Virus record (IMG/VR): IMGVR_UViG_3300022562_000702
DNA from: a virus
DNA: 64,000 nucleotides
Reading direction: 5' to 3' (one strand)
Positions 4,410-63,991 of the stretch are shown in pieces. Position numbers and translations under genes: made by a program. The number at the start of each line of letters is the position of its first letter. Positions within the stretch are counted from its first letter, which is position 1. The notes beneath the pieces are model-generated. The model was given only the letters and a program-made list of their open reading frames with translations, searched no databases and had not been told where the DNA came from.

Positions 4410-4452
4410 GTTCTCCCCTCTGCAAAAACGCCTTTACCTATTTATGTGTCTT

Positions 4453-4486
4453 GATCAGGATTTTCCAAACTGTTATACTCGTCCAG
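4453..4486 (+). promoter_or_regulatory. sigma70-like promoter (TTGATC - 16 nt - TGtTATACT extended -10)
   Basis: Hexamers read in the sequence upstream of the amidotransferase gene. A GAGGAG Shine-Dalgarno follows. Confidence 0.4.
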
Positions 4487-4498
4487 AGGAGAAGAAGT

Positions 4499-5743: not shown

Positions 5744-6333
5744 TGGATGAACAGTTTATTGAAGACATCTTAGAGAATCACGAAAAGAAAAAGAACAAGG
5801 TTGACGGCAAAGCCAAAGGAGACCGAACAGAAAGAAATCTCTGCAAGTTTCTGGGCAAGCACTTCGGGGAGGAATTCTCTAAGGCTCCCGGTTCTGGTGC
5901 CCGCACCAGTCAAGTCGCTTATCTGCCCGAGCACGCCAAGAAGACTCTCACCGGTGACATCTGCGTTCCAGAGGGATTCAAGTGGGTCATTGAGTGCAAA
6001 GGCGGGTATGAAGACGATATGAACCTGACAAATGTGTGTGAAGGAGTGGCTTGCCTCGATGAATTCATCGAACAAGTCACCAAAGATTCGGAATACTGCG
6101 GGCGAAAACCGATCATCTTTTGGAAGAGAAATCGGAAACCATGGTTGGCAATCCTTAAGATTGATGATGTGCCTTTCAAAAAACCGGGAGTGGGATATGC
6201 AGCGATTGATCCAACTCCTTGTTTGGAGACGTTCATCTTATACAAAGGTTGGGCCATCCTGCATTTGGAAGCACTTTTTGAAATGACAGAAAAGGAGTTC
6301 TGGTTCAATGAGACAAAGAATGGCATGTGTTGA
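5743..6333 (+). CDS. hypothetical protein, possible PD-(D/E)XK-type nuclease
   Basis: GDICVPEGFKWVIECKGG resembles a D-x(n)-E-x-K nuclease motif. This is otherwise unassigned. Confidence 0.35.
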   Translation: MDEQFIEDILENHEKKKNKVDGKAKGDRTERNLCKFLGKHFGEEFSKAPGSGARTSQVAYLPEHAKKTLTGDICVPEGFKWVIECKGGYEDDMNLTNVCEGVACLDEFIEQVTKDSEYCGRKPIIFWKRNRKPWLAILKIDDVPFKKPGVGYAAIDPTPCLETFILYKGWAILHLEALFEMTEKEFWFNETKNGMC

Positions 6334-6682
6334 TTTTGATGGCACCATCGTCCATCACCGGTTTCCCGCTATTGGAGAACCACTTCCAAACGCTTTCGAA
6401 GTTCTTAAAGAACTCAAGGAAGCTGGTTGGATTCTTATCCTCTGGACATGTCGTGAAAACGACAAACACGACATGAACCATCAGTATCTTCAAGATGCTG
6501 TAGACTTCTGTAAGGAAAACGGCGTCGAGTTTGATGGCATCAACGAGACTCCAATTGAATGTGAGTTCCGAGGCGAAGCTTGCTTCTTCAGACGCAAGGC
6601 TTATGCCGACGTGTATATCGATGATCGTAATCTTGGCGGATTCCCCGGCTGGGCAGCGGTCAGGGAGGAATTGCTGGGATGA
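6308..6682 (+). CDS. small HAD-superfamily phosphatase-like protein
   Basis: Motif I CVDFDGTI (DxDGT) and a C-terminal VYIDDRN (motif IV DD). 124 aa. Confidence 0.5.
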   Translation: MRQRMACVDFDGTIVHHRFPAIGEPLPNAFEVLKELKEAGWILILWTCRENDKHDMNHQYLQDAVDFCKENGVEFDGINETPIECEFRGEACFFRRKAYADVYIDDRNLGGFPGWAAVREELLG

Positions 6683-6963
6683 AACCGAAACTTAAGAGAA
6701 TCCATGTGAACCAACACAAGATTCGCCATAACAAAAAGACTGGCGAGAATGTGCCGGTCTTGACTTGTAAGACAACCAAGTCAAATGACTATGGACACAC
6801 CGTCATCATTTATGATAAAGATGGCAATGAGGCGGCTCGTGTGATCTACAGCTATTGCAAGCCGCTGTCTTGTGGTGCTCACTGCTGGGTTGAAACCTCA
6901 AACGAGGTCGATGTCATTGAGACCAACAAGAACGGAGACCCTCAGAAAACCACCCGTGTTTAG
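6679..6963 (+). CDS. hypothetical protein
   Basis: ORF with start overlapping the upstream stop (ATGA). Confidence 0.35.
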   Translation: MKPKLKRIHVNQHKIRHNKKTGENVPVLTCKTTKSNDYGHTVIIYDKDGNEAARVIYSYCKPLSCGAHCWVETSNEVDVIETNKNGDPQKTTRV

Positions 6964-6971
6964 GAGACGCA

Positions 6972-7187
6972 ATGAAACTTGAATTCACGCAAGCTGAAAT
7001 TGAAGACATGATCCGAAGACAACTGGTCGCTGACGGCTACGAACCCACATCGGCTGTGGAGTTCTCGCCCAAGAAACGATTCATGGGAGCGAAGCTCAAA
7101 GCAACTGTGCTCGTCAAAAAGTATCTCACGCCTGTTCCTGTTGAGGCCGAAGAGCCAACAACTCAGGAATCTGTGAGTTCTGATTGA
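6972..7187 (+). CDS. hypothetical small protein
   Basis: 71-aa ORF. Confidence 0.3.
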   Translation: MKLEFTQAEIEDMIRRQLVADGYEPTSAVEFSPKKRFMGAKLKATVLVKKYLTPVPVEAEEPTTQESVSSD

Positions 7188-7842
7188 CTTTATGAGAACT
7201 GCCTTTCACCCAGTGGAAGGCCACAGGCTTTTCTGGATCACCATAGAAGAGAGATCCCTTCTGGTTCTTGTACTTGAAGGCTTCGACGACATGGCATGGG
7301 ATCTTCTCTTGGATGATCTTTTGTCTCATTCTCCAGCCAGTTTCCTTCCATTCTTCTTCGCCTTCCTTTCTGGTCACAACGAATGTTTCCTGTAAGGCCA
7401 ATTGGCGATCAATGAACATGCCGAAGACGCATGGGGCCAGCCAACCGGCTCGCTCTGGATAGCGATCATTGACTTTAGTGAAGTCCTTGTACCAAAGTTC
7501 TGCGCCATAGCATTTGCAGCCATTGGCGAATTCCCTACGGACATCCTCCATGATGTCCGGTTTGAGCCAGAAGAAATCAGAATCACAGATTCCAATGATA
7601 TCCGACTCAGCTTTACGGACGAGGAAGTCTAGTGCCCCGCCGTGTTTCTCCCCATCAATGCCGCTGTATTCCTGTCGGAACACCAACATGTTTTCTCTAG
7701 TGATCGGGATGGGTTTGTATTCGTTTTTGGGGGTATTGTCACAAATCAAGAACCGGAAGTCGCCTTCGATCTTATCCCAGAACTCAAATTGCAAATCCAG
7801 CAACGCATAGTTGCGATAAATGACGATGCAGATATCAATCAT
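7126..7842 (-). CDS. putative glycosyltransferase (GT-A like)
   Basis: N-terminal IDICIVIYRN...FLICDNTP and a DSD acidic motif. It is the first gene of a co-directional sugar-modification cluster. Confidence 0.4.
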   Translation of the reverse strand: MIDICIVIYRNYALLDLQFEFWDKIEGDFRFLICDNTPKNEYKPIPITRENMLVFRQEYSGIDGEKHGGALDFLVRKAESDIIGICDSDFFWLKPDIMEDVRREFANGCKCYGAELWYKDFTKVNDRYPERAGWLAPCVFGMFIDRQLALQETFVVTRKEGEEEWKETGWRMRQKIIQEKIPCHVVEAFKYKNQKGSLFYGDPEKPVAFHWVKGSSHKVNQNSQIPELLALRPQQEQA

Positions 7843-8630
7843 CGAAGGCTCTCCTTGAACGTGTTGTAGGCTGTTCTATAGATATCCTTCGTAAGAAGAT
7901 CGTAGCTGCGAGTCCATTCTGCCTCGTACATTCTTTCCAGTTTTTCGTCATCAACACAGTAAAGGTCGGCCCAACGCTCTTTTGCTTTTTGGTGCCCGGA
8001 GACCTTGTATTGGATCTGCTTTTTTCTTTCTTTGACATAATCAAACGGAGACCAACCAAACCAACACAATACAAAATTTGGATCGATCTCCTGTGTGAGT
8101 TGATTAGTGTGTCTTCCGGGGCCGTATTTTCCGCTTGGATGATTGTGAATCACTCTGGATCGTGATGGATGGCGAGACCCAACTGTAGAAAGTTGTTTTC
8201 GACAATCTTCCTCCATATATCCAAATGTCTTTGTGAGAATCAATGGTTCTTCATAAGTGCTGCGATTGTCTGGATGATCGACAATTATAACGCCAGTAGC
8301 CCTCATTGCCCTTCGTTGCTGACTTTCAAGAGAAGCGACGTATTGTTTTAAGTTGGGGTGCAAGAGGAATTCTGTGGTATTTAGAACCATCTTCCATCCA
8401 TCAAATTCTCTCTCAATCTCCTCAACCTCTAGTCCAATGTAAGGCTCTTCGAAATACTGGTTCTTGGTGGTGCGAATTTCCCACTCGGGAGCTAGTTCCT
8501 TGATGATCTCAACCGATCTGTCGGTTGAGCGGTAGTCTATCATCACCGCATGGTCAAACAATGGTTTGTGGTGTTTGATCCAGTGAGGAAGTAGGAATTC
8601 TTCGTTGTAGAAATGGCTGATTAGGTACAT
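7839..8630 (-). CDS. putative glycosyltransferase
   Basis: N-terminus HFYNEEFLLPHWIKHH...AVMIDYRSTDRS is typical of nucleotide-sugar transferase folds. Its start overlaps the neighbouring gene. Confidence 0.4.
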   Translation of the reverse strand: MYLISHFYNEEFLLPHWIKHHKPLFDHAVMIDYRSTDRSVEIIKELAPEWEIRTTKNQYFEEPYIGLEVEEIEREFDGWKMVLNTTEFLLHPNLKQYVASLESQQRRAMRATGVIIVDHPDNRSTYEEPLILTKTFGYMEEDCRKQLSTVGSRHPSRSRVIHNHPSGKYGPGRHTNQLTQEIDPNFVLCWFGWSPFDYVKERKKQIQYKVSGHQKAKERWADLYCVDDEKLERMYEAEWTRSYDLLTKDIYRTAYNTFKESLR

Positions 8631-9847
8631 GATACTGCCGGGACGTACTTAATGTAATGGTGCCTTTCTCCGCACATAGCCCCAATGCGATTCACAATTT
8701 CGTCGAAGAAATTCCATGCCAGAATCACAATATACAACTCGCTTTCTTCTTTCATCACTTCCGGTGACTTGATCGGGATGTCCCGGCCCGGAGTCAGATA
8801 ATCCCACTTCATCGGATTGTCATCAACGATGTAGTCCAGATTGAGTTCAAAGAAATTGAGCATCGTGTTGCCTTTGGCGGATGCACCATATCCAATTACC
8901 TTCTTCCCTTGTCCTTTCAAGTCTGAGATCAACTTCTGCATGTCTTTCTTGTTCTGCTGAACCTGCTTGGCGAAGTCCACATATGTCTGCTTGGAAAGCA
9001 AGCCTCGCTTGTGCTCCTGCATAGCCAGATCGAGAGCGTCTGTGCAATGGTGTTTGTCACGACGCAGAAAGAATCGAATGCTTCCGCCGTGGATCGGGGT
9101 TCGCATGATGCGATCAATTCCCAGCTTCTTTCTTTCTACCAGAGCGATCATCGAGTTTACCAAGAAGTACGAAAGGTGCTCGTGATAGATCGTGTCGAAC
9201 TCGAAGTGAGAAATCATTTCGTCGCAGTACGGGAACTCCAAGATGATAACTCCATCATCTTTAAGTACGCTGATGCACTCATCCAGATAAGTGCTGACAT
9301 CATGGACATGGGCAAAGACATTGGTTCCCGTGATGATGTCGAACTTCTTGTCTCTCAATTTGTAGGCCGCACCGCTTCCCCAATAGATGACCTCGACCGG
9401 AATGTCCTTCTCCTTGGTGATCTCTCGAAGGTTTTGGGCCGGGTCCACGCCTTGCACAGAACATCCCATGTCCTTGAAGTTTCCGAGCAACGTGCCGTCA
9501 TTGCAGGCCACATCCAAAACGTAAGGCGGCATCCAACAGTCTATGGTCAAGAAAGGATGTCTGGCATTCCAATAGTTGACCGCATCATGAGCAAGATCCT
9601 TACAATGCTTTCTGAAGGTCTCGGTCGTACCACTAACATAGAGATAGTTCTTAAACATCAATGGCGGATCGACCACAATGCTGAGTTGGCTGTGAAAGCA
9701 GCTTTCGCAGAGATCAACTTGCAGCGGAAACTGCTTAAGCTCTTCTCCTTTGTGATAGCTGTTGGCGAGAGGCTGTTTTCCGAGATCGAGATATCGGTAC
9801 AATTTGTTGCCGCCACAACAGCGACATGCTTTCACATCCTTAAACAT
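8621..9847 (-). CDS. SAM-dependent C-methyltransferase with N-terminal zinc-ribbon domain (NDP-hexose C-methyltransferase-like)
   Basis: N-terminal CRCCGG...CESCFH zinc-binding domain. SAM motif I is LDVACNDGTLL. The architecture resembles TylCIII/NovU-type sugar C-methyltransferases. Confidence 0.65.
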   Translation of the reverse strand: MFKDVKACRCCGGNKLYRYLDLGKQPLANSYHKGEELKQFPLQVDLCESCFHSQLSIVVDPPLMFKNYLYVSGTTETFRKHCKDLAHDAVNYWNARHPFLTIDCWMPPYVLDVACNDGTLLGNFKDMGCSVQGVDPAQNLREITKEKDIPVEVIYWGSGAAYKLRDKKFDIITGTNVFAHVHDVSTYLDECISVLKDDGVIILEFPYCDEMISHFEFDTIYHEHLSYFLVNSMIALVERKKLGIDRIMRTPIHGGSIRFFLRRDKHHCTDALDLAMQEHKRGLLSKQTYVDFAKQVQQNKKDMQKLISDLKGQGKKVIGYGASAKGNTMLNFFELNLDYIVDDNPMKWDYLTPGRDIPIKSPEVMKEESELYIVILAWNFFDEIVNRIGAMCGERHHYIKYVPAVSCT

Positions 9848-10748
9848 ATTCTTTCCTTTCTCTAACTGTCTTGTGTGCTTCGTGCCATCCTCCTATAAGA
9901 GACTTGACAATACTGTCTACTGATTCACGAAACTCGAAATTGTAAGTTTGTTGGAACTTGCTGGTATCGATGCTGAAATTGTAGGCCGGGGCACTCCCCT
10001 TATCGACGATCTCAACCCCTCCCAAAGCCTGACTGATTGACTGGGAGATTTCATCGACTGAAGCATTGAAGCTGGCAAGGTTGTAGATACCTCTGTGATC
10101 GCCACCTTCAAGAATCGCCGCTACGGCTCGACATAGATCTTGGATGCCCAAGATCGGGCGATAGATGTCTTTGTTGAAAACGGAGATTGAACCCTCGTCG
10201 GCGGCGTGTTTGTACATCTTGTTCAACATGATGTCTGCACGCAGGTTTGGCGACCAGCCATTTACTGTGCCGAATCTCAGGCCATAGAACTCTACGCTAC
10301 TCAATCGAGCGTAGTAGTCAATCTCCTGCTTCTGGAGGTCGTAGTACGTCTTAGGATCGTACTGCGACCAGCCTTCAGGAGCGGCGATGTTCTTGGTGTC
10401 GCCATAGATGCTCGAACTGCTGGCGTAGAGGAACTTACAGTTGTGTCTTTCGAGCTTTTCGAGAAGTCTGACGAAGTTGACGACGTTGTTTTCAAACGAT
10501 GGCAGGCAATTGTCCAAGCACATCGGGACGCTGGAGTGACCTGCCAGCAGGACTACAGAATCGTAATCGCCCAGTTGGTAGTATCCGGGCTCGTCGAGCT
10601 TTTTGTAGTCCCACATCTTGTTGTCAGGATTGACAACATTGCCGAACCACTCCAAGTCTACCGTGTCAACTTCATGACCTTGTTCTTTAAGAAACAAGAA
10701 CAGTTTACTGCCGATATAGCCGCAGCCGCCAATGATGAGTATTCGCAT
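9840..10748 (-). CDS. NAD-dependent epimerase/dehydratase (SDR family)
   Basis: MRILIIGGCGYIGSKL Rossmann motif. An internal ATG at 10748 with a GGAGGAG Shine-Dalgarno is preferred over the listed start at 10793. Confidence 0.75.
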   Translation of the reverse strand: MRILIIGGCGYIGSKLFLFLKEQGHEVDTVDLEWFGNVVNPDNKMWDYKKLDEPGYYQLGDYDSVVLLAGHSSVPMCLDNCLPSFENNVVNFVRLLEKLERHNCKFLYASSSSIYGDTKNIAAPEGWSQYDPKTYYDLQKQEIDYYARLSSVEFYGLRFGTVNGWSPNLRADIMLNKMYKHAADEGSISVFNKDIYRPILGIQDLCRAVAAILEGGDHRGIYNLASFNASVDEISQSISQALGGVEIVDKGSAPAYNFSIDTSKFQQTYNFEFRESVDSIVKSLIGGWHEAHKTVRERKEYV

Positions 10749-10789
10749 TAGCTCCTCCGCTCTATATATGAGCGAAGGAGCTTCGATTA

Positions 10790-11539
10790 TCACTTAAGTT
10801 CGAACTCTTGCCCACGGACCACGAACCCCTGAAACCCATCTTCTGTGGGATTCTGAGGAGGATTGGGGCCATAATGGTAGAGCCACATCTTCTCTTTGTG
10901 TTTGTCAGGCAATGTCTTCAGATCATCGTAGTGAGCGTGGACACCGCTTTTGAACGGATACGTTTCGCAGTCATGGAAGACGATATCTGCCATGTCATAG
11001 AATTTCTCGATTTGCCGAGGACAGAACTGAGTGTCTGTGGTGAAGAACGTCTTGTCGTTGATGATCAGACCATAGCTGGGCACAATCCCCAGCCCGTTCA
11101 TTACATGAACTGTCTGGATCGGGCAGAATCGCACGCTCTTCCATGTGAAACAGTTGTTGATCTGAACGGTGGTGACATCGAAGAAACTGTCCAGAGTCAG
11201 CACGATGCCTTCATGCGACTGCATCCCACCCTTCAGGGAATCCCAGAGAGGCTCGACGAGACTGTCCACAATGAAGAGTTTGGGCTTCGATGCTTGGGGA
11301 TCGAAGTAGGTGCAGAATCCCAACCACTCCAAGCCGCCAATATGGTCGGCGTGCAGATGGCTGATGTAAACTGCGTCGATGTCCCTGTGAGACAGACCGA
11401 TCTCGCCGAGGCTGAACCGGGCATCGCTGCCGCAGTCAATTAGGAAGACCTTCCCTGTGTCTGGCCGGATCACGGCATTGCTTTGATAGTAGTCTTGTGT
11501 GGTGAAGGCCGATCCAACACCTGCGAATTGAAGCTTCAT
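10790..11539 (-). CDS. MBL-fold metallo-hydrolase
   Basis: HxHxDH motif (VYISHLHADHIGG). A start at 11539 (MKLQFAGVGSAF, preceded by AAAGGAGGAG) is preferred over 11650. Confidence 0.7.
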   Translation of the reverse strand: MKLQFAGVGSAFTTQDYYQSNAVIRPDTGKVFLIDCGSDARFSLGEIGLSHRDIDAVYISHLHADHIGGLEWLGFCTYFDPQASKPKLFIVDSLVEPLWDSLKGGMQSHEGIVLTLDSFFDVTTVQINNCFTWKSVRFCPIQTVHVMNGLGIVPSYGLIINDKTFFTTDTQFCPRQIEKFYDMADIVFHDCETYPFKSGVHAHYDDLKTLPDKHKEKMWLYHYGPNPPQNPTEDGFQGFVVRGQEFELK

Positions 11540-11621
11540 GGCTCCTCCTTTTTCTGGTTGAATGACTCGCACTTTGCGTGCCACTCTCAGATACCGAAGA
11601 ATACCGCAAACCGGACAAAAT

Positions 11622-12512
11622 TCACAGATCAGTTTGACTACATTGGTCATCAGTTTGATTCGGGATCAGCCCTCGAATGAGGAACTCCCGCATCTGGATC
11701 GTGCGACTATTCTGGGGCGATTGTTCCAGACAGAATAGGGCGACATCAGTTCTTCCGGCCTGATGCAAATTTTGGACCGACCGTAGAAGTTCGTCAGTCT
11801 CGGCGTGATTCACTGGCTGGAAGTTCAGGTCTGGCACCCAATTGAAGATTCGACGGGCGAGTTCTATGGTTTCTTCGTCGAAGTAGGACAGGTATTCTGG
11901 ATCGTCCTGCATGTGTTTGTAACTGTTGAGGGGATCGACCTTTCCGAAGCTGCTGCCGCCGCTATGCTTCCAGCCGTCCTGCGATCCAAATTTTTTGTCC
12001 GTAAATGCGAACCCGAGACGCTCTGATGTGTCTTGACGGTATTCGGGGTTTTTGTACCATTCGTTGAATGAGATGTTGGTGCATAGATACCCATCTAAGA
12101 ATGCTGTGGCATATTGTTTCCACAGATCGATTGCCCGACCGGAAAGGGCGTCGAGACACGAAAAACCAGACGACTTATTCGCATTGAAATTGCGAACCAT
12201 CTTCAGGCGACTTGCGAAGAGATTGAATGGATCTCTCAGCAGCAAGACTTGCCGTGGAGAATCACTCAAATGCTCTCGTAAAAAGCACAACTCGTAGTCC
12301 TCGAAACTCGCAAGAGTGAAGGGACGCTCTCCATAACCAGCACGCTCGACGTGCGTGGTTTCTGCTTGGCCGTTGTGCATGTAGCAGTTGTTGTAATGCA
12401 CCCAACAACTGGCATGGCCGAATATCCAGTCCATCACAGCGTGATTACCGCTGCGCCTTAGACCGAAGAAGGCATTCGTGTCTTTGGGGACTGGCTGTAG
12501 CTCATTTTTCAT
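11622..12512 (-). CDS. sulfotransferase-like protein
   Basis: GLRRSGNHAV resembles the PAPS 5'-PSB loop. LLLRDPFNLFASR resembles the 3'-PB RDP motif. Confidence 0.35.
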   Translation of the reverse strand: MKNELQPVPKDTNAFFGLRRSGNHAVMDWIFGHASCWVHYNNCYMHNGQAETTHVERAGYGERPFTLASFEDYELCFLREHLSDSPRQVLLLRDPFNLFASRLKMVRNFNANKSSGFSCLDALSGRAIDLWKQYATAFLDGYLCTNISFNEWYKNPEYRQDTSERLGFAFTDKKFGSQDGWKHSGGSSFGKVDPLNSYKHMQDDPEYLSYFDEETIELARRIFNWVPDLNFQPVNHAETDELLRSVQNLHQAGRTDVALFCLEQSPQNSRTIQMREFLIRGLIPNQTDDQCSQTDL

Positions 12513-12527
12513 ACTTTAAGAGAGGAA

Positions 12528-13181
12528 ATGACCATGAAATCTTACTGGTCAATTGACGGCCCATCCAAGGGCCATAAAGGTAAGCCGTGTTACGCTTTCG
12601 TCAAATACGATGGGAGCAACATGCGGTTCGAGTGGTCGAAGAAGCGAGGCTGGTACAAATTCGGTACTCGCAAAACCATGATCGACCACACTTCGAAGAT
12701 TTTCGGTCCCTGCATTCCGCTGTTCTTGCAAAAGTACGGGGATGGCTTGGCTGATGTCTTCAAGAAGGAGAAGTATTTCCACGGCGTGCAGTCGGTGGTT
12801 GTGTTTGGCGAGTATTTCGGAGCCAAATCGTTCGCCGGGATGCACCGTCCTTGGGACGATCAGCGGGATATCGTCTTGTTTGATGTGAATGTTCACAAGA
12901 AGGGGATTTTGGGTCCAAAACAATTTTTGGACTTGTTCGGTCATCTGGGGGTGGCTGAGGTTGCTTACCAAGGCAACTTCGGCGTGGAACTCGTAGAGAA
13001 GGTTCGTAAAGAAACCCTCGACATCGAGTCCAAGTATCCAGTAAAATCGGAAATCCCCGAAGGCGTTGTCTGCAAAGGCAGCAGCGGCCACGATCTGTGG
13101 ATGTGCAAGATCAAGACCGAGCGATACAAAGCCAAGCTCAAGGAAGAATATGAAGCCGACTGGGAGAAATACTGGGAATGA
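12528..13181 (+). CDS. minimal covalent nucleotidyltransferase of the RNA/DNA ligase superfamily (RNA-ligase-like)
   Basis: Motif I is FVKYDGSN (KxDG). Motif III is VFGEYFG, motif IV is LFDVNV and motif V is EGVVCKG. 217 aa. Confidence 0.5.
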   Translation: MTMKSYWSIDGPSKGHKGKPCYAFVKYDGSNMRFEWSKKRGWYKFGTRKTMIDHTSKIFGPCIPLFLQKYGDGLADVFKKEKYFHGVQSVVVFGEYFGAKSFAGMHRPWDDQRDIVLFDVNVHKKGILGPKQFLDLFGHLGVAEVAYQGNFGVELVEKVRKETLDIESKYPVKSEIPEGVVCKGSSGHDLWMCKIKTERYKAKLKEEYEADWEKYWE

Positions 13182-13371
13182 GTTGTTAGAGTTCGCCGAG
13201 TGGATTCGACAACAACGCCCACAAACCCCAGAGGAAAAGCAGGTTTTCATTGCTGAGCTTCGCCGTCGCAGGGCGGGGCTCAGCAAATTTTTTACCCCCG
13301 AGGTCAAAGAAGCCGTCAAGCAGGAGTTAATGCGACGGGAAAGGAGCAAGGATGAAAATCACGTCCCGTGA
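13150..13371 (+). CDS. small hypothetical protein (internal start of listed ORF 13066..13371)
   Basis: Only the C-terminal 73 aa avoid heavy overlap with the ligase-like gene. The region is basic and helical. Confidence 0.25.
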   Translation: MKPTGRNTGNELLEFAEWIRQQRPQTPEEKQVFIAELRRRRAGLSKFFTPEVKEAVKQELMRRERSKDENHVP

Positions 13372-14107
13372 GTACAAACTGATGTTGCGGCCCACAGAAG
13401 ATGTGACAGCCGTATGGCAGGATGTTGCGACTCTGGTGCGATCTACAGGAGACCTTGTTCTCCGCAAAACACAGAAGGTGTCCTTTCTCGATACGGCGGA
13501 ACACAGTCTGCGTGAAAATGGCTATGTTCTCAGACGCCGATTCCCGTCTTCTGGAGTGCAGTACACACTCAAGCGACGTTCCCCAGACATCTTCATTGCA
13601 CGAGGGGTGAAGATCAAATCCAAGCACGATCTGAGAACCAAGCTGGAAGAAGACATTTCTTTCCCTTTCCGAAGCAGATTTTCGTATTCAGGGACCATCG
13701 ATCTCAAAAAAGACGTTAAGCGACCGGAAAAACTATTCTCAAACCTGCAAGGGACGGAAAAACTGATTCCCGTCAACGGGGTTGAAGTCTCAGAAGAGGT
13801 CTACGAAGGTGTGATCGTTTTGGACTGCATCCCTGTCTCAGCCGGTGTTCTGCTTTGGAAAAGGGATGGGAAACCTCTTCTCGGCGAGTTTTCTTTCCGT
13901 TACAAAAGTCGTAATGGCAAGTACCCGCTGACTCTGGCCCTCGCTGCCAAGTCGCTTTACGAGGATCTCCAGACCTTGCCAACGGTTGATGCAACTGGTA
14001 TCACTAAAACTCAGTTCGTCTATGAGGAGCCGTCTTGGATGCAGGCAACCATGCTCCAAGCGACGGCCTGCAATTGGAGCATGAATGGACCATCCCAAGG
14101 AACTTGA
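13352..14107 (+). CDS. hypothetical protein, weak CYTH/triphosphate-tunnel-like pattern
   Basis: N-terminal SREYKLML, then VLRRRF and YTLKRR resemble the beta1 ExK, RxR and TxK motifs of CYTH enzymes. The match is degenerate. Confidence 0.4.
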   Translation: MKITSREYKLMLRPTEDVTAVWQDVATLVRSTGDLVLRKTQKVSFLDTAEHSLRENGYVLRRRFPSSGVQYTLKRRSPDIFIARGVKIKSKHDLRTKLEEDISFPFRSRFSYSGTIDLKKDVKRPEKLFSNLQGTEKLIPVNGVEVSEEVYEGVIVLDCIPVSAGVLLWKRDGKPLLGEFSFRYKSRNGKYPLTLALAAKSLYEDLQTLPTVDATGITKTQFVYEEPSWMQATMLQATACNWSMNGPSQGT

Positions 14108-22763: not shown

Positions 22764-23037
22764 CTTTTGGATTGCTCAGCGACATAAGATCATCTTATAC
22801 ATTGAAGCCATGCTGGCTAAGGATTCGATGTCCGTGCCGATGAGGTACATCCAGTTTGCCATCAACCACAATCGACAATTCCTTCAAGCCGACAACATCC
22901 AGTATGATCGTCAGGAGTTGATTGAGGGATGCTTCCTTCACTGTCGGTATCTCTTCTACTCCGATGCCAACGATCAGGCCAAGATGGATTCCGCTGCCCA
23001 GCGATACAACCGCTGGAAGAAGTCTATGACCGGGTAG
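22756..23037 (+). CDS. hypothetical protein
   Basis: 93-aa ORF. Confidence 0.35.
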   Translation: MANFWIAQRHKIILYIEAMLAKDSMSVPMRYIQFAINHNRQFLQADNIQYDRQELIEGCFLHCRYLFYSDANDQAKMDSAAQRYNRWKKSMTG

Positions 23038-23962
23038 GAGCATAGAAGGCGGCTGTCTGGAGCTTCTGGCAGGATTCGATCATCTTCTCGGGATATGCCC
23101 GGTACTTCGTCAGATCCATCGGCCACTTGTCTGTTCTGAGCCGTCTGGCCCCTAATTTCATAGCATCCCCGTAGAACGTCTGTGCTCGCTTGAAATCCCT
23201 TGACAGGTGATAGAAGGCATCTCCCATCAAACACCAGAACTCGGCCATCAGGGGCCTTTCTGAGAGGCATAGAGTGAGATTCTGAAGGGCTGGCCGGATC
23301 TTCTTGGAATACACAATGCTCGCCATGGCGTAATAGTACCGATTCATGATCGCCGACATCGAATTTGAGGGGTCCAGAGCCATGTAATGCTCCGAGATCG
23401 GCATGAACCTAGCCCAATTCCCTTGCGCCAGCAAGGTGCAGGCTTCATAGTACCACGGCGAAATGGCTGTTGGCTTGTCTTTCTTCCAACTCTCAATCCT
23501 GCGGAGAACATCATCGTAGTCCGTTCGGCCACTGGAATAGAAGACAGTGCCCACTTCCTCGTCACAATCTGAAATTAACCTCTCATAGACGGGATTTTGG
23601 AACTTGTGATTACGGCCCTTCCAGAATCGAACCTCTTTTGACACAACCTTGTTATTAACAATTGTTGCATATCGGTGGACGCCATCGCAGGAATCAATGA
23701 GATGGTGCCCTTGAACCAATGCTTCCCACGGTTCGATGAAGAAGTTCCAGCCCTCTGATCCCATAGAGATCAGATGATTTCGTGCTTCGTGGCGTGGTCG
23801 GTCGAGTTGTTCCACGAGGGCACCGTGATTCTGGCAAATGGCAACGGTGTCATCTGTGCTGCCGAGATCGGCGACCAAGATTTGATCCACGAACGAGATC
23901 GACTCAAGGGTTTTGAGGATTGTCTGGCTGTTGTTCTTGGTCAGAATGTGTGCGACGGCCAT
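23024..23962 (-). CDS. glycosyltransferase family 2-like protein
   Basis: N-terminal VAHILTKNN...VADLGSTDDT (GT2 DxSxD-type motif). Confidence 0.65.
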   Translation of the reverse strand: MAVAHILTKNNSQTILKTLESISFVDQILVADLGSTDDTVAICQNHGALVEQLDRPRHEARNHLISMGSEGWNFFIEPWEALVQGHHLIDSCDGVHRYATIVNNKVVSKEVRFWKGRNHKFQNPVYERLISDCDEEVGTVFYSSGRTDYDDVLRRIESWKKDKPTAISPWYYEACTLLAQGNWARFMPISEHYMALDPSNSMSAIMNRYYYAMASIVYSKKIRPALQNLTLCLSERPLMAEFWCLMGDAFYHLSRDFKRAQTFYGDAMKLGARRLRTDKWPMDLTKYRAYPEKMIESCQKLQTAAFYAPTRS

Positions 23963-43956: not shown

Positions 43957-43993
43957 TCTGTGTCTCCTGTTCTATGTTCTGAGCCGGTGAGGC

Positions 43994-51234: not shown

Positions 51235-51247
51235 TGGGGTTCCTCTC

Positions 51248-52311: not shown

Positions 52312-52613
52312 GGCAGCACCAATCTAATCAAGCTGAAAGCGACAATGTAGACGATTACAGGGAACAGAACGTGCATCGCCACAACGTGTTTGATTCCGGG
52401 GAATTGTCGAGCCCAATCTTCGTCGCCGTTCACGGCCCGCAGTCGTCTCTGCCAACCTCCGGGCGAGTTGAACCTGATGTCGTCCCACAGACACCGGAAA
52501 GGCAGTTCCCAGCCGCCCATGCCGCCGTTGATGAAGCATTCCAGTCCGTAGACCAGATACCACACTCCGAAGGCGATGATTGCTGCAAAGGCGACTGACA
52601 TTGTTACCACCAT
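52308..52613 (-). CDS. small membrane protein
   Basis: Two hydrophobic helices. Confidence 0.3.
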   Translation of the reverse strand: MVVTMSVAFAAIIAFGVWYLVYGLECFINGGMGGWELPFRCLWDDIRFNSPGGWQRRLRAVNGDEDWARQFPGIKHVVAMHVLFPVIVYIVAFSLIRLVLP

Positions 52614-61611: not shown

Positions 61612-62469
61612 TCAAGCTCGAAGCTGTGTCGCCAGTGCATCAAGTGCCACCAACTTATCCCACCCCTTACGCTCTGCGAGCAACTTATCTCGCATCGCTT
61701 GGAAGTGGATCTCTGAAGCGGCCTCATGGCCGTCCAGTTGATTCGTCAATTCATCGATCATCAGATCAATGGCCCAAGGCTCCATCAACATGTGATGGAT
61801 GTGCCCTGAGAAGGTCAGGTCTGTATGACATGCCACGCCGGGAATGCACAGAGCCAACCTGCGTTGTTTCTCTTCATGTAACTGCGTGAAGATTTTGTGG
61901 TCATGCGGATGAGTTTCACTGGTGAACTCCTTCCAGATGTCCAAGTCTTTCCGCAGCGTTCCAATTTTTGTACCGAACGTCATGCAAGTGCTGGCGGTGT
62001 ATCTCCAATGGCTGGAAGGGGTTTTGATCACCTTGGAGATCTCCCCTCCGTTGTAGTACCGTGTGTACTTGTCTGGGTGATCGTAGAGCGTCACATAGTC
62101 GGCCCGCTTGATCCCTTCCTCCAGCAACTTCGGCGCAGAACCCAAATGGAGATAGTCGTCCTCGCAGAAGTAGACAAGTTCATCGTCCTCGCACTCTTCC
62201 AAAGCCACGTTCAGCGTCTTCCACAATGAGCCAGCATTTCCTTCTGCTGTTGCTGTGTATGGCAATCCCGTATCATGAATCATCTTGATCGTTTTGCGTT
62301 GGCAGTTATCACAAACGATTTTGATCGGCGGCACATCCTCTTCGGATTTTGGGAAGATGACTTCTGCGAAAGCCTTGCAAAAGTTCATCAGGCAAACTTC
62401 TTTGGTTGCCCCCGGCAGCTTTTGCTTTTCGTAGCTGTTATCGCTGATTCGATAGTAGAGTTTCATCAA
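61612..62469 (-). CDS. putative nucleotide-sugar glycosyltransferase (GT-A like)
   Basis: YFCEDDYLHLG acidic DxD-type motif. 285 aa. Confidence 0.35.
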   Translation of the reverse strand: MMKLYYRISDNSYEKQKLPGATKEVCLMNFCKAFAEVIFPKSEEDVPPIKIVCDNCQRKTIKMIHDTGLPYTATAEGNAGSLWKTLNVALEECEDDELVYFCEDDYLHLGSAPKLLEEGIKRADYVTLYDHPDKYTRYYNGGEISKVIKTPSSHWRYTASTCMTFGTKIGTLRKDLDIWKEFTSETHPHDHKIFTQLHEEKQRRLALCIPGVACHTDLTFSGHIHHMLMEPWAIDLMIDELTNQLDGHEAASEIHFQAMRDKLLAERKGWDKLVALDALATQLRA

Positions 62470-63991
62470 GCTCCTTCTTTACCCGTTCGAAGACGCCTTC
62501 CCAGTCGCCTCGCTTTGATTGACGGAAGATTCTTACAGAATCATACCAATCTGTAGTATCTCCTTCAATACCCCATCGCCAGTCTGGATTATATGGGAGA
62601 CACATCCAACATGGAATGCCCATTGCTCCCGCCAAGTGGATGATGGCGGTGTCGCATGAGATCACCAAATCAAGACCCGCTAGAATAGTACAGGTATCTT
62701 CTAAACTCTGAATCATTGTCGTCAAATCAACAAGTTGCATATCTTCGCAACCCTCGGCCAGATCTACGATCTTTCCGTCGCTGCCGGGTCTCATTTCAAA
62801 TCCGTTCCCATACTTTCTGGGTCGAGTATCGAACTGGAGACTGAACAGCTTAACGCCGGGAGTTTCATAGATTGCCTTGAAGTGCTTTAAGGGAATTGAA
62901 CGACGTTGATCGTGCGGATGGGCCGGGCTCCCGGCCCAAACAATTCCCACCTTCATGTCTTCCTTGCCATACTCATCTTCAACAAACTGACGGAAGTTCT
63001 GGGTGACTGGCTTGATGTAAGGCTTCCCACACAACTCGTAATCTTTCAACAGATGTGGTAAGCTCATCATGGAACACTGATAGTCATACTCAGGGAACTC
63101 GTCTCCCTTGTTGTTCACGATGTCACGGTTGACAGTCTCGTCTACCCCTTCACATCTCTTAAGGATGGCGTCCAAATTGGGACTACAGTGAACAATGACG
63201 TGTGCTCCTCGTTCTTTAAGTTGAGGGACGTAGCGAATGAACTGGATTGCGTCTCCCAATCCTTGTTCAGCATAGACCAACAATCGCTTGCCTTCCAGTG
63301 GGTTTCGGCCATTCCAACGCTTCGTCTGATCGTATGACTGTTTGTAGTAGTCCATCTGGTTGAAGTAATCAAATCGCCATTCGTATTCTTCGAAGCCGGT
63401 TTTCCAGTGACCCAGAAGATGATGGGCAAATGCCAAGTCAACATGAGCCGCAGGATATCCCGGTTCATGCTTCAAAGCTGTCTCAAAACAACGAAGTGAT
63501 TCTTCAACATCCTTGAGTTCTCCATACAATCCACCGAGGTTAGTCCACATCTGAGGGCTGTCAGGGCAAAGCTCCAAGGCTTTCCTTAAGGTTGCAATGG
63601 CGGCTTCGTAGTCTCCGATAATTCGGTACTGGAGAGCAAGATTGTTTGAGAAAAGATACTGTTGAGGGTTCAGTTCGATGGCCTTCTTGATGTTCTCGAT
63701 GGCTCGCTCGTGGTTCTCCAAGCCTCCGTAAGCCAAGCCGATGTTATTGTAGTTGTCGGCGTTGGTGGGATCGATATCGAGTGCTGTCTGAATGATCTCG
63801 ATAGCCTCGGCATTTTTGCCCATGCGATGCTTGGCAAGGCCGAGCAATTGCAGACCAGCGAGATGTTCTGGATCGCATCGAAGAAGTTGCTTCAGGATGA
63901 TTTCGGCGATCTCTGGCTTCTTCTCTAAGTATTCGCCAGCCGTATCGACGGCATCATCCATAATGCTCTTTGCTTTGTCTGCCGTCATCAA
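62438..63991 (-). CDS. TPR-repeat protein fused to a glycosyltransferase family 9-like (heptosyltransferase-like) domain
   Basis: ~6 N-terminal TPR repeats (AEAIEIIQTALDIDPTNADNYNNIGLAY...). C-terminal LLVYAEQGLGDAIQFIRYVP and later IIHLAGAMGIPCWMCLP are typical of GT9 (GT-B) enzymes. Confidence 0.55.
   Translation of the reverse strand: MMTADKAKSIMDDAVDTAGEYLEKKPEIAEIILKQLLRCDPEHLAGLQLLGLAKHRMGKNAEAIEIIQTALDIDPTNADNYNNIGLAYGGLENHERAIENIKKAIELNPQQYLFSNNLALQYRIIGDYEAAIATLRKALELCPDSPQMWTNLGGLYGELKDVEESLRCFETALKHEPGYPAAHVDLAFAHHLLGHWKTGFEEYEWRFDYFNQMDYYKQSYDQTKRWNGRNPLEGKRLLVYAEQGLGDAIQFIRYVPQLKERGAHVIVHCSPNLDAILKRCEGVDETVNRDIVNNKGDEFPEYDYQCSMMSLPHLLKDYELCGKPYIKPVTQNFRQFVEDEYGKEDMKVGIVWAGSPAHPHDQRRSIPLKHFKAIYETPGVKLFSLQFDTRPRKYGNGFEMRPGSDGKIVDLAEGCEDMQLVDLTTMIQSLEDTCTILAGLDLVISCDTAIIHLAGAMGIPCWMCLPYNPDWRWGIEGDTTDWYDSVRIFRQSKRGDWEGVFERVKKELDETLLSNQR

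What the first reader, a model, noticed from the sequence alone, without database searches (positions are those of the whole stretch)
7126..12512. Six-gene sugar-modification cluster (GTs, C-methyltransferase, epimerase/dehydratase, MBL hydrolase, sulfotransferase-like)
Six co-directional minus-strand genes with overlapping start and stop codons encode, in order along the minus strand from upstream to downstream:
- a sulfotransferase-like protein;
- an MBL-fold hydrolase;
- an SDR-type NAD-dependent epimerase/dehydratase;
- a zinc-ribbon plus SAM C-methyltransferase of the NDP-hexose C-methyltransferase type;
- two GT-A glycosyltransferases.

That is the toolkit for making and transferring an unusual, possibly C-methylated and/or sulfated, deoxy-sugar. 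In a phage the likely targets are hypermodified DNA bases or virion proteins, or host surface remodelling.

Elsewhere the window adds a GT2 (23024..23962), a TPR-GT9-like protein (62438..63991) and another GT-A-like protein (61612..62469).
Basis: partly seen in the sequence, partly recalled or inferred. Interest (0 to 1): 0.6.

Follow-up and report, generated by a model that had tools for sequence, protein, structure and literature searches.

The report
Phage branched-sugar cassette plus anti-defence gene
An uncultured phage carries enzymes predicted to make a methyl-branched sugar, attach it to an unknown target and probably sulfate it, but the "hydrolase" in the middle is an unrelated enzyme that destroys bacterial alarm nucleotides.

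Summary
The six minus-strand ORFs are real, but they are a mosaic rather than one pathway.

- All 18 loci retrieved with C alone carry D within 1.5 kb.
- E is nearby in 9 of those 18.
- Paenibacillus sp. P96 encodes C and D fused in one 693-aa protein, followed by E.

**F (7126-7842).** A second GT-A-like protein with an invariant DxD motif.

**B (10790-11539).** It is an Apyc1 anti-Pycsar phosphodiesterase (Pfam 105 bits against a cutoff of 50; solved Apyc1 E 4e-34). It has its own ribosome-binding site and accompanies C-D in no other locus.

- Only three of the five junctions truly overlap.
- "Deoxy" is unsupported, because C lacks the 4,6-dehydratase signature.

**Open points.**
- The acceptor is unresolved.
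- No DNA base-activating enzyme was found among the window ORFs scanned.

**Verdict.** A new variant of a known kind, of moderate interest.

The parts
11622..12512 (-). Gene A: 296-aa sulfotransferase-fold protein from a family with no Pfam model. Putative PAPS-dependent glycan sulfotransferase.
11540..11621 (-). 82-nt spacer between A and B, ending in the AAGGAGG ribosome-binding site of B.
   Evidence: Read directly from the sequence. No terminator or strong promoter consensus was found here.
10790..11539 (-). Gene B: 249-aa Apyc1-family MBL-fold cyclic-mononucleotide phosphodiesterase (anti-Pycsar). An independent anti-defence gene embedded in the cassette.
   Evidence: Pfam PF23023 scores 105.5 bits against a cutoff of 50. 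Solved Apyc1 structures match at 7u2r E 4e-34, 7u2s 2e-31 and 7t28 1e-28, while the next MBL protein is at 1e-6. The HxHxDH motif and the further His/Asp metal ligands align. It is 32-35% identical over its full length to the Apyc1 genes of Bacillus SPO1-like phages, including SBSphiJ7. No homologue appears in any of the fetched loci that carry a close C-D pair.
9840..10748 (-). Gene C: 302-aa extended SDR (GalE/Cj1427-like, NAD-type). It handles the C4 keto/hydroxyl step for D.
   Evidence: Pfam Epimerase E 3e-23. The best PDB match is 6vo6 at E 3e-11; from my own knowledge 6vo6 is Cj1427, which is a C4-dehydrogenase with tightly bound NADH (PMC10680097; the paper does not cite the PDB code). 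GGCGYIGS, D31, SSSS and Y136-x3-K140 are present, and the TDE dehydratase signature is absent. The start at ATG 10748 sits behind GGAGGAG.
8621..9847 (-). Gene D: 408-aa NDP-hexose C-methyltransferase (TylC3/TcaB9/MtmC type) with an N-terminal Cys4 zinc module.
   Evidence: Methyltransf_13 plus a SAM domain plus Methyltransf_14. PDB 4rv9 (MtmC) matches at E 5e-65 and TcaB9 at 2e-52, both over the full length. The FDTIYHEHLSY motif is identical to that of MtmC, and CxxC...CxxC is present.
7839..8630 (-). Gene E: 263-aa GT-A-fold glycosyltransferase from a large family that carries N-x-T-E-F where a DxD motif is expected. The transferase of the conserved C-D-E core.
7126..7842 (-). Gene F: 238-aa second GT-A-like transferase with a canonical DxD motif.
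   Evidence: Glycos_transf_2 scores only 14.7 bits. About 40 homologues were found, some with a precomputed PF00535 hit. D35 and D87-S-D89 are invariant. The family profile's best PDB hit is the GT2 mannosyltransferase 6yv7 at E 0.012. F pairs with an E homologue in L051 and with a GT9-like gene in L052.
62438..63991 (-). TPR + GT9-like (GT-B) protein, linked to A and F by gene neighbourhood in other phages. Probably part of the same glycosylation system.
   Evidence: It has TPR repeats and a weak Glyco_transf_9 hit at 18.6 bits, below the cutoff of 22. Among natural proteins its TPR region is most similar to OGT (E 7e-34); engineered consensus TPR proteins score higher. Homologues lie next to A in L003, 4-7 kb from A in L001, L055 and L057, and next to F in L052.
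61612..62469 (-). 285-aa protein with no family hit. Its homologues lie 1.5-4 kb upstream of C-D in three viral contigs.
   Evidence: No Pfam or NCBIfam hit. tblastn finds homologues in L070, L071 and L077 near C-D.

Best explanation
The locus is a mosaic accessory island of three separable units.

**1. A conserved, translationally coupled module, C-D-E with F appended, that makes and transfers a methyl-branched sugar.**
- D is an NDP-hexose C-methyltransferase. Enzymes of this family need a 4-keto sugar nucleotide (established knowledge of TylC3, TcaB9 and MtmC).
- C is a GalE/Cj1427-like NAD-type SDR that is not a 4,6-dehydratase. I infer that it supplies and/or resolves that 4-keto group.
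- My preferred reading (inferred) is a redox-neutral cycle: C oxidises C4 of a host NDP-hexose, D methylates the adjacent carbon (C3 most likely), and C re-reduces C4.
- The alternative is that C simply reduces the methylated product of host-made dTDP-4-keto-6-deoxyglucose.
- E (GT-A with N-x-T-E-F) and F (GT-A with DxD) then transfer sugars to an acceptor.

**2. Gene A**, a stand-alone sulfotransferase-fold protein that probably sulfates the resulting glycan using host PAPS (inferred).

**3. Gene B**, an Apyc1-family phosphodiesterase that degrades cyclic mononucleotide alarm signals such as cCMP and cUMP. It has nothing to do with sugar chemistry and merely sits in the same accessory slot.

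**Acceptor and precursors.**
- All six proteins are predicted to be soluble.
- The acceptor is not shown. My leading guess (about 0.35) is a protein, either virion or host.
- The phage encodes no detectable nucleotidyltransferase or RmlB/RmlC, so the precursors must come from the host.
For: **Domain and fold assignments**
-.

**C-D linkage**
- All 18 loci fetched with C alone (42-69% identity) have D within 1.5 kb, usually overlapping or abutting in the order C then D.
- Paenibacillus sp. P96 encodes one uninterrupted 693-aa protein. Residues 5-296 match C (45% identity, E 8e-84) and residues 294-692 match D (41% identity, E 1e-105).
- That fusion gene is followed, with a 4-nt overlap, by an E homologue carrying NITEF. 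No other sugar genes lie nearby.

**E linkage**
- E follows or precedes C-D in 9 of those 18 loci, and also in L080, L081 and L082.

**Sulfation linkage**
- A lies next to C-D in a second, divergent contig, L058. There A is 45% identical, C 66% and D 63%; A is on the opposite strand and B is absent.
- In L080 a non-orthologous Sulfotransfer_2 gene sits directly upstream of C-D-E.
- Other A homologues neighbour GT9-like, RmlC-like, SDR and nucleotidyltransferase genes.

**B independence**
- B has its own strong Shine-Dalgarno sequence and is flanked by gaps of 82 and 41 nt.
- No B homologue occurs in any related locus.
- Among the phage records searched, its relatives are all Apyc1-type genes of Bacillus and Staphylococcus phages.

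**Translational coupling**
- C/D, D/E and E/F overlap.

**Solubility**
- No 19-residue window exceeds a Kyte-Doolittle hydropathy of 1.6 in any of the six proteins.

**Lean towards a protein acceptor**
- E's best structural match is SunS, a peptide S-glycosyltransferase, and its best profile match is GmaR, a flagellin O-GlcNAc transferase.
- The partner TPR+GT-B architecture resembles OGT.
Against: - No enzyme activity, substrate or product is shown; everything is inferred from sequence, predicted structure and gene neighbourhood.
- A's 5'-phosphosulfate loop is RSGNHA, not the canonical (K/R)(S/T)G(S/T)T. No sulfotransferase HMM reaches significance for A, and only 3 of 56 homologues give weak Sulfotransfer_3 hits.
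- A is linked to C-D in only two fairly related contigs, plus one case of analogous displacement.
- E lacks a DxD motif and clears its Pfam cutoff by only 1.5 bits.
- C matches Cj1427 only marginally better than other SDRs (E 3e-11 against 5e-11), so its exact reaction is open.
- A divergent branch of the C family has Leu in place of the catalytic Tyr.
- Related loci often add RmlC and a nucleotidyltransferase-kinase fusion that the window lacks, so the window's product may differ from theirs.
- The SunS, GmaR and OGT similarities are weak or generic and do not fix the acceptor.
- Apyc1-like MBL enzymes can differ in nucleotide preference. YhfI prefers cAMP and cGMP (PMC9117128).
Confidence: 0.6

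Rival explanations
1. All six genes, including the MBL hydrolase, form one sugar pathway. On this view the MBL protein acts on a sugar phosphate, a sulfate ester or a nucleotide by-product.
For: - B lies between A and C on the same strand, and there is no recognisable terminator.
- MBL-fold arylsulfatases exist. PDB 8gyg matches B weakly at E 3e-6.
Against: - B is about 28 orders of magnitude closer to solved Apyc1 proteins than to any other MBL protein, and it passes Pfam's Apyc1 cutoff two-fold.
- None of the related C-D or A loci carries a B homologue.
- L058 has A, C and D without B.
- B has its own ribosome-binding site and flanking gaps.
Confidence: 0.07
2. The cassette glycosylates phage DNA. 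It would add a branched or sulfated sugar to a hydroxymethylated or hydroxylated pyrimidine to evade restriction.
For: - Phage DNA-glycosylating gene clusters with a sugar epimerase paired with a GT-A or GT-B transferase are documented (bioRxiv 10.1101/2023.12.21.572611; PMC13326640).
- The cassette lies among nucleotide-metabolism and nucleic-acid genes: CTP synthase, a PDDEXK nuclease and an RNA ligase.
- All six proteins are soluble.
Against: - Those published clusters sit beside a base-activating enzyme (5mYOX with C5-MT, or a ThyS-like hydroxymethylase). None was found among the window ORFs scanned with Pfam.
- In other genomes the C-D-E module sits in multi-GT, O-methyltransferase and RmlC clusters typical of glycan synthesis. 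In Paenibacillus it is a stand-alone bacterial module.
- Only about 64 kb of a probably larger genome was examined, and small ORFs were not scanned.
Confidence: 0.13
3. The cassette remodels a host envelope polymer (wall teichoic acid, LPS or O-antigen, capsule, or an S-layer glycan) during infection, for example to block superinfection or alter receptor display.
For: - Related loci carry RmlC, GT1, GT7-like and O-methyltransferase genes, as in polysaccharide clusters.
- 3-C-methyl sugars are known in bacterial surface polysaccharides (my own knowledge).
Against: - The window has no membrane-anchored component, flippase, polymerase or lipid-carrier transferase.
- The phage shows no lysogeny genes in the window, and its structural genes are of the T4 type.
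- The partner protein has a TPR domain, a protein-binding module in OGT-type transferases (my own knowledge).
Confidence: 0.22
4. A is not a sulfotransferase but another P-loop-like transferase or kinase, and the cassette produces an unsulfated glycan.
For: - The phosphosulfate loop is the non-canonical RSGNHA.
- No sulfotransferase HMM is significant.
- Foldseek E-values are only about 2e-3, with TM-scores of 0.3-0.4.
Against: - The R-x7-S 3'-phosphate motif is invariant, correctly placed at a strand-helix junction, and resembles the Sulfotransfer_2 signature.
- A true Sulfotransfer_2 gene occupies the equivalent position in L080.
Confidence: 0.2

Closest known systems
NDP-hexose 3-C-methyltransferases TylC3, TcaB9, KijD1 and MtmC (antibiotic deoxysugar pathways)
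   Same: D shares the full three-domain architecture: a Cys4 zinc module, a class-I SAM domain and the Methyltransf_14 C-terminal domain. It has the YHEH active-site motif and aligns end to end with MtmC (E 5e-65) and TcaB9 (E 2e-52).
   Different: D is phage-encoded. It is always paired with, and in Paenibacillus fused to, a GalE/Cj1427-like SDR rather than embedded in an RmlA/RmlB, 2,3-dehydratase or aminotransferase deoxysugar pathway. Its substrate nucleotide and regiochemistry (C3 or C5) are untested.
Apyc1 anti-Pycsar phosphodiesterase (Bacillus phage SBSphiJ gp147, Bsp38 and Paenibacillus homologues; Hobbs et al. 2022, PMC9117128)
   Same: B passes Pfam PF23023 and aligns over its full length to three solved Apyc1 structures. 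It conserves the HxHxDH motif and the other metal ligands, and has the same size of about 250 aa.
   Different: Identity is only 32-35%. B sits in a distantly T4-like phage of unknown host, whereas all 89 hits in the phage collection are Bacillus or Staphylococcus phages. It is embedded inside a glycosylation cassette. Its substrate range and the Apyc1-specific loop were not verified.
Cj1427, the GDP-heptose C4-dehydrogenase of Campylobacter jejuni, and GalE-type extended SDRs
   Same: C has the same extended-SDR fold family, an NAD-type Asp after strand 2, a Ser/Tyr/Lys triad and no dehydratase signature. Its top PDB hit is 6vo6, which from my own knowledge is Cj1427; Cj1427's C4-dehydrogenase role is from PMC10680097.
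   Different: Similarity is low (E 3e-11) and barely above that to other SDRs. Whether C oxidises, reduces or does both is inferred, not shown.
PAPS-dependent carbohydrate sulfotransferases (Sulfotransfer_2/HNK-1 type) and the CurM/OLS sulfotransferase domains
   Different: No HMM membership. The 5'-PSB loop is RSGNHA. A has an extra helical C-terminal region (residues about 237-280). The acceptor is unknown.
SunS (sublancin S-glycosyltransferase, SPbeta prophage) and GmaR (Listeria flagellin O-GlcNAc transferase), both GT2 protein or peptide glycosyltransferases
   Different: Identity is 16% or less. E has N-x-T-E-F instead of DxD. It has no substrate-binding extension comparable to the TPR-like domain of SunS. 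The acceptor is unknown.
Phage glycosylation cassettes: epimerase+GT clusters for 5hmC glycosylation (Pyle et al.) and mycobacteriophage virion glycosylation genes (Freeman et al. 2023, cited in PMC12619734)
   Same: These are soluble phage-encoded transferases paired with a sugar-nucleotide tailoring enzyme that rely on host sugar nucleotides.
   Different: Here the tailoring is C-methylation with probable sulfation. My one full-text search pairing '3-C-methyltransferase' with 'phage' returned no paper, and my searches found no description of phage glycan sulfation either. There is no adjacent base-activating enzyme, and the cluster is not adjacent to capsid or tail-tube genes.

Membership tests
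NDP-hexose C-methyltransferase (TylC3/TcaB9/MtmC) | N-terminal Cys4 zinc-binding module (Methyltransf_13) | tested here: met
   PF08421 matches at E 3e-15. C8-x2-C11 ... C47-x2-C50 aligns with the cysteines of MtmC.
NDP-hexose C-methyltransferase (TylC3/TcaB9/MtmC) | Class-I SAM domain followed by the Methyltransf_14 C-terminal domain, with full-length homology to solved members | tested here: met
   PF08484 matches at E 1e-40. PDB 4rv9 matches at E 5e-65 over residues 4-399, and 3ndi at E 2e-52.
NDP-hexose C-methyltransferase (TylC3/TcaB9/MtmC) | Active-site Tyr/Glu/His cluster (Y222, E224 and H225 in TcaB9) | tested here: met
   FDTIYHEHLSY is identical in D and MtmC in the HMMER alignment. 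The residue roles are from my own knowledge of the TcaB9 literature.
NDP-hexose C-methyltransferase (TylC3/TcaB9/MtmC) | SAM-dependent methylation of an NDP-4-keto sugar at C3 | not testable with these tools
   Needs an enzyme assay. The regiochemistry and the nucleotide carrier are unknown.
Apyc1 anti-Pycsar phosphodiesterase | Passes the curated family model | tested here: met
   PF23023 scores 105.5 bits against a cutoff of 50, covering profile positions 3-224 of 250.
Apyc1 anti-Pycsar phosphodiesterase | MBL metal-binding residues (HxHxDH plus the downstream His, Asp, His and His) | tested here: met
   HLHADH, tvHv, ttDt, fHd and vHa align with the corresponding residues of 7u2r and 7u2s.
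Apyc1 anti-Pycsar phosphodiesterase | Closer to Apyc1 than to the cAMP/cGMP-preferring YhfI-type MBL phosphodiesterases | tested here: met
   Apyc1 chains match at E 4e-34 to 1e-28. The next MBL chains are at 1e-6 or weaker, with 1zkp at 4e-5. The distinction between the two groups is taken from PMC9117128.
Apyc1 anti-Pycsar phosphodiesterase | Apyc1-specific loop reaching into the nucleotide pocket; hydrolysis of cCMP and cUMP; rescue from Pycsar | not tested
   The alignment to 7u2r is nearly gap-free (227 against 222 residues), which suggests the loop is kept, but the loop was not mapped. Activity needs experiments.
PAPS-dependent sulfotransferase | Sulfotransferase alpha/beta fold | tested here: met
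PAPS-dependent sulfotransferase | 5'-phosphosulfate-binding loop (K/R)(S/T)G(S/T)T between strand 1 and helix 1 | tested here: inconclusive
   The loop is at the right place (strand 13-17, helix 21-31), but it reads R20-S21-G22-N23-H24-A25. It is nearly invariant in the family.
PAPS-dependent sulfotransferase | 3'-phosphate-binding motif R-x7-S at a strand-helix junction | tested here: met
   R93 and S101 are invariant and follow strand 88-92 into helix 95-111. The motif aligns with RNPFDRFVS of a Sulfotransfer_2 protein.
PAPS-dependent sulfotransferase | Significant match to a sulfotransferase sequence model | tested here: not met
   There is no Pfam or NCBIfam hit for A. Three of 56 homologues give weak Sulfotransfer_3 hits, the best at E 0.014. 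The family profile finds nothing in PDB sequences.
Extended SDR NDP-sugar epimerase/dehydratase superfamily | GxxGxxG NAD-binding motif and Ser/Thr-Tyr-Lys triad | tested here: met
   GGCGYIGS, SSSS and Y136-D-L-Q-K140 are present, and PF01370 matches at E 3e-23.
NDP-hexose 4,6-dehydratase (RmlB/Gmd type) | Asp-Glu pair after the catalytic Thr (TDE), needed for 6-deoxygenation | tested here: not met
   C has ASSSSIYG at that position. It falls far below the NCBIfam dehydratase cutoffs, scoring 56 bits against 365. The motif definition is from my own knowledge.
GT-A (GT2-like) glycosyltransferase: gene E | GT-A Rossmann-like fold with a nucleotide-binding Asp | tested here: met
GT-A (GT2-like) glycosyltransferase: gene E | DxD metal-binding motif | tested here: not met
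   The position reads N84-T-T86-E87-F88. N84, T86 and E87 are invariant in the 61-sequence alignment; in the 58-sequence set E87 is invariant and N84 and T86 are at least 90% conserved.
GT-A (GT2-like) glycosyltransferase: gene F | DxD motif and a family-model match | tested here: inconclusive
   D87-S-D89 and D35 are invariant in 34 homologues. However, PF00535 scores only 14.7 bits against a cutoff of 23.3, the profile match to PDB 6yv7 is E 0.012, and no structure was predicted.
Phage DNA sugar-hypermodification gene cluster (Pyle et al.) | A transferase adjacent to a base-activating enzyme (5mYOX/TET with C5-MT, or a ThyS-like hydroxymethylase) | tested here: not met
   None was found among the roughly 45 window ORFs scanned. 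The only DNA methyltransferase is an N6/N4 type, 28 kb away. Small ORFs and the rest of the genome were not examined.

The most novel reading that the evidence does not exclude
C-D-E is an uncharacterised, self-contained system for branched-sugar glycosylation.
- A GalE-like SDR "lends" a C4 oxidation so that the fused or adjacent C-methyltransferase can methylate a common NDP-hexose. This would be redox-neutral and need no dehydratase.
- A DxD-less N-x-T-E-F GT-A enzyme then places the sugar on a protein.
- In this phage the glycan is extended by F and the TPR-GT-B protein and sulfated by A, giving a sulfated, C-methyl-branched glycan on virion proteins. My literature searches found no description of such a glycan on a phage particle.
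Probability: 0.12. Interest if true: 0.7.

Novelty: new variant of a known kind. Interest (0 to 1): 0.4.

Why it matters
- Phage-encoded glycosylation is known for DNA and for a few virions. C-methyl branching and sulfation would add new chemistry to what phages display or hide behind.
- The comparative result has wider reach than this phage. An SDR, C-methyltransferase and GT-A triad recurs across many uncultured phages and is fused in a Paenibacillus genome, yet I found no description of it. It offers a compact, testable route to branched sugar nucleotides, which could be useful for glycoengineering.
- The reassignment of the "MBL hydrolase" to Apyc1 is a practical caution. Anti-defence genes can be embedded in metabolic-looking operons and mis-read as pathway enzymes.
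- It also extends Apyc1 to a phage lineage far from the Bacillus SPO1-like phages in which it was defined.

Tried and rejected
**Searches that found nothing**
- Nucleotide search of the cluster against the phage collection: no match.
- tblastn of A against the phage collection: no match.
- Sequence and profile searches of A against PDB: nothing useful; the one hit, ActVA-Orf6 at E 0.77, is noise.
- The search for related loci with single proteins (D, and the AAA ATPase) in viral contigs: no relatives. The phage has no close relative in IMG/VR, so I could not compare isogenic genomes with and without the cassette.
- Rfam: no regulatory RNA in the cluster.
- Literature search pairing "3-C-methyltransferase" with "phage": no papers.

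**Searches that were uninformative**
- The genome-contig scan with the C-family alignment chose patterns that were too generic (GxGYIG, YASSS). It returned mostly unrelated SDRs; only a Chloracidobacterium MAG has a close C-D pair.
- Promoter and terminator scans of 6500-13500: counts at or below the shuffled expectation, so uninformative.
- GC and GC3 per gene: E is somewhat lower (GC3 0.47) and B somewhat higher (0.66), but both fall within the spread of the window, so there is no clear foreign-origin signal.

**Ideas considered and rejected**
- C as a 4,6-dehydratase: rejected, because the TDE signature is absent.
- E as a decayed pseudo-enzyme: rejected, because N-x-T-E-F is conserved across the family alignments, drawn from 845 clusters.
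- B as a PAP or sulfate-ester hydrolase serving A: rejected on its homology and its distribution.

Full report
**Observation**

ORF listing confirms six co-directional minus-strand ORFs at exactly 7126-12512. I call them:
- A: 11622-12512
- B: 10790-11650
- C: 9840-10793
- D: 8621-9847
- E: 7839-8630
- F: 7126-7842

The window matches JGI metagenome 3300015263, contig Ga0183003_10000294 (64.8 kb). It comes from an uncultured contractile-tailed phage:
- it has a tail sheath, a T4-type baseplate protein and a gp19-like tail tube protein;
- it has no nucleotide-level relative among 50,697 phage records.

- B's alignment to solved homologues begins at residue 37 of the long ORF. ATG 11539 is preceded by AAGGAGG.
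- C's Pfam match begins at residue 18 of the long ORF. ATG 10748 is preceded by GGAGGAG.
- With these starts the layout is A, an 82-nt gap, B, a 41-nt gap, then C. Only C/D (8 nt), D/E (10 nt) and E/F (ATGA) overlap.

**What each gene is**

*Gene D* is an unambiguous NDP-hexose C-methyltransferase.
- It has Methyltransf_13, a SAM domain and Methyltransf_14.
- It matches MtmC (4rv9, E 5e-65), TcaB9 (E 2e-52) and the sugar 3-C-methyltransferase 5t6b (E 9e-51) end to end.
- The Cys4 module and the FDTIYHEHLSY active-site stretch are conserved.

*Gene C* is an extended SDR (PF01370, E 3e-23).
- It has GGCGYIGS, an NAD-type Asp and an S/Y/K triad.
- It has SSSSIYG where 4,6-dehydratases have TDE.
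- Its top PDB hit is 6vo6, at E 3e-11, which is only marginally better than other SDRs. From my own knowledge 6vo6 is Cj1427, the Campylobacter GDP-heptose C4-dehydrogenase that holds NADH tightly (PMC10680097).

*Gene E* barely passes PF13704, but it folds with pLDDT 96.9 into a GT-A fold.
- Its family is large, with 845 clusters at 50% identity.
- The family carries N-x-T-E-F instead of DxD: N84, T86 and E87 are invariant in the 61-sequence alignment and at least 90% conserved in the 58-sequence set.

*Gene F* has weak HMM support but an invariant D35 and D87-x-D89.

*Gene A* has no family hit at all.
- A 56-sequence alignment gave a confident model, with pLDDT 92.
- The invariant R93-x7-S101 lies at a strand-helix junction, like the 3'-phosphate-binding motif.
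- The 5' loop reads RSGNHA, which is a variant of the usual motif.

*Gene B* is not a generic MBL hydrolase.
- It passes Pfam's Apyc1 model (105.5 bits against a cutoff of 50).
- It matches three solved Apyc1 structures at E 4e-34 to 1e-28, with all metal ligands aligned. The next MBL proteins are at 1e-6.
- All 89 of its relatives in the phage collection are in Bacillus and Staphylococcus phages, including the SBSphiJ family in which Apyc1 was defined (PMC9117128).

**Which genes belong together**

I fetched loci using A, C, E and F separately, then searched each locus for all six proteins.

*C and D*
- All 18 loci retrieved with C alone (42-69% identity) contain D within 1.5 kb, nearly always directly downstream.
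- E follows or precedes the pair in 9 of the 18.

*Retrieval through E* gave three further cases:
- L081.
- L080.
- Paenibacillus sp. P96, where one uninterrupted 693-aa ORF is C (residues 5-296, E 8e-84) fused to D (residues 294-692, E 1e-105). An E homologue with NITEF follows it with a 4-nt overlap, and no other sugar genes lie nearby.
- A gene fusion plus conserved order is strong evidence that C and D act on the same intermediate and that E uses their product.

*F*
- It pairs with E in L051 and with a GT9-like gene in L052.

*A*
- It lies beside C-D in L058. There A is 45% identical, C 66% and D 63%; A is on the opposite strand and B is absent.
- In other phages it neighbours homologues of the window's TPR-GT9-like protein: adjacent in the 527-kb contig L003, and 4-7 kb away in L001, L055 and L057. 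It also neighbours RmlC-like, SDR and nucleotidyltransferase genes.
- In L080 a bona fide Sulfotransfer_2 gene sits directly upstream of C-D-E. Its 3'-PB motif RNPFDRFVS is the only stretch that aligns with A, at RDPFNLFAS.
- A non-orthologous sulfotransferase at the same position argues that sulfation really is coupled to this module.

*B*
- It was found in none of these loci.

**Mechanism**

*Shown*
- The family memberships and folds described above.
- The C-D fusion and the conserved gene order.
- The translational coupling of C-D-E-F.
- The absence of transmembrane segments.

*Established knowledge*
- TylC3/TcaB9/MtmC-type enzymes methylate the carbon next to a C4 ketone of an NDP-sugar.

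*Inferred*
- C provides and/or removes that ketone.
- C is not a dehydratase, it is NAD-type, and it travels with D even where no other sugar gene is present (the window and Paenibacillus).
- I therefore favour a redox-neutral oxidise, methylate and re-reduce cycle on a common host NDP-hexose.
- A plain 4-ketoreductase role on host dTDP-4-keto-6-deoxyglucose is almost as likely.
- Related loci add RmlC, RpiB and a cupin-nucleotidyltransferase-kinase fusion. The window lacks these, so this phage depends on host precursors and may make a D-configured product.
- E and F then transfer sugars, and A sulfates.
- B separately hydrolyses cyclic mononucleotide signals.

**Target**

The target is unresolved.

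*DNA glycosylation*
- Published DNA-glycosylating clusters sit next to 5mYOX with C5-MT, or next to ThyS-like enzymes.
- I found none among the roughly 45 window ORFs scanned.
- I rate this low, but it is not excluded.

*Envelope-glycan remodelling*
- It is possible. TarP, TarS and RmlT appear among E's structural neighbours.
- However, no membrane component is present.

*A protein acceptor*
- This is my leading guess.
- The evidence is weak: the similarity to SunS and GmaR and the OGT-like TPR+GT-B partner.

**Comparison and novelty**

- Each enzyme type is known, and phage glycosylation cassettes are known.
- My one full-text search pairing "3-C-methyltransferase" with "phage" returned no paper.
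- The specific conserved SDR, C-methyltransferase and N-x-T-E-F GT-A triad, and its association with sulfotransferases, appear to be undescribed.
- A and E belong to families with no, or only marginal, curated models.
- I classify the finding as a new variant of a known kind.
- B is a new, divergent member of Apyc1.

**Caveats**

- Everything is computational.
- L058, L059-L064, L080 and L081 belong to a related group of phages, so part of the synteny is inherited rather than independent. The Paenibacillus fusion and the more distant viral loci (42-50% identity) are the independent support.
- A divergent branch of the C family has Leu in place of the catalytic Tyr, so C's role may not be uniform across the family.

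Noticed in passing
window 54008-54083 (-): A tRNA with anticodon CUA, an amber-suppressor type that ARAGORN labels tRNA-Pyl. It was also found by Rfam at 38.8 bits. It lies immediately upstream of, and slightly overlaps, the NAPRTase ORF. TAG ends 8 of 55 long ORFs, so wholesale recoding is not evident. None of the six cluster genes ends in TAG.
   Followed up: partly
window 47546-54035 (-): A Preiss-Handler-like NAD+ synthesis set. It comprises NAPRTase (52797-54035, E 4e-58), a glutamine-dependent NAD synthase (49162-51345, NCBIfam 787 bits) and a cytidylyltransferase-like, possibly NadD/NMNAT, protein (47546-48160). It could be a counter-measure to NAD-depleting defences.
   Followed up: partly
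window 12528-13181 (+), 56792-57634 (-): An RNA ligase (PF09414) and a Thg1-like tRNA-His guanylyltransferase, both RNA-repair-type functions. Together with Apyc1 and the NAD genes, they suggest a phage rich in counter-defence genes.
   Followed up: no
window 12513-12527: Only 15 bp separate the divergent start codons of A and the RNA ligase gene, so the promoters for both must lie inside coding sequence. At the other end, F's 3' end overlaps the convergent 71-aa ORF at 6972-7187 by 62 nt.
   Followed up: no
window 7839-8630 and the E family (A3, A4): This is a large GT-A family, with 845 clusters at 50% identity. Some bacterial members are annotated as "glycosyltransferase family 2". It carries a conserved N-x-T-E-F (invariant in the 61-sequence alignment) instead of DxD, which suggests unusual metal or donor handling.
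   Followed up: partly
L073-L076, L078 (C homologues): A divergent branch of the C family replaces the SDR catalytic Tyr of YxxxK with Leu (GLTLSK) while keeping the adjacent D gene. The SDR may be non-redox in that branch.
   Followed up: partly
L064 3437-9659 and L080 49-7248: Relatives of the cassette carry what looks like a complete de novo sugar-nucleotide pathway. It includes a cupin-nucleotidyltransferase-APH-like kinase fusion (about 620-640 aa), a GatZ/KbaZ-like aldolase, a shikimate-dehydrogenase-like protein, RpiB and RmlC. This hints at an unusual, possibly higher-carbon, sugar.
   Followed up: partly
whole window; B, E, sheath: There are weak hints of a Firmicute, possibly Paenibacillus-like, host. 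The best solved-structure matches of B are Paenibacillus Apyc1 proteins. The C-D fusion with E is in Paenibacillus. The sheath scores best against Bacillus phage SP-15. The Shine-Dalgarno sites are strong AAGGAGG, and the GC content is 51%. None of this is decisive.
   Followed up: no
window 1326-2948, 4451-5743, 6308-6682, 40132-40920, 41443-41934: Other auxiliary genes: CTP synthase, a class-II glutamine amidotransferase with an unassigned C-terminal half, a BT0820-family HAD phosphatase, an N6/N4 DNA methyltransferase and a NUDIX hydrolase.
   Followed up: no
window 42349-45589 (-): Two adjacent paralogous proteins of about 530 aa match phrog_200 ("lipoprotein"). Further downstream lie a weak PP2C-like ORF (48141-49172) and a weak protein-kinase-like ORF (45668-47416).
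   Followed up: no
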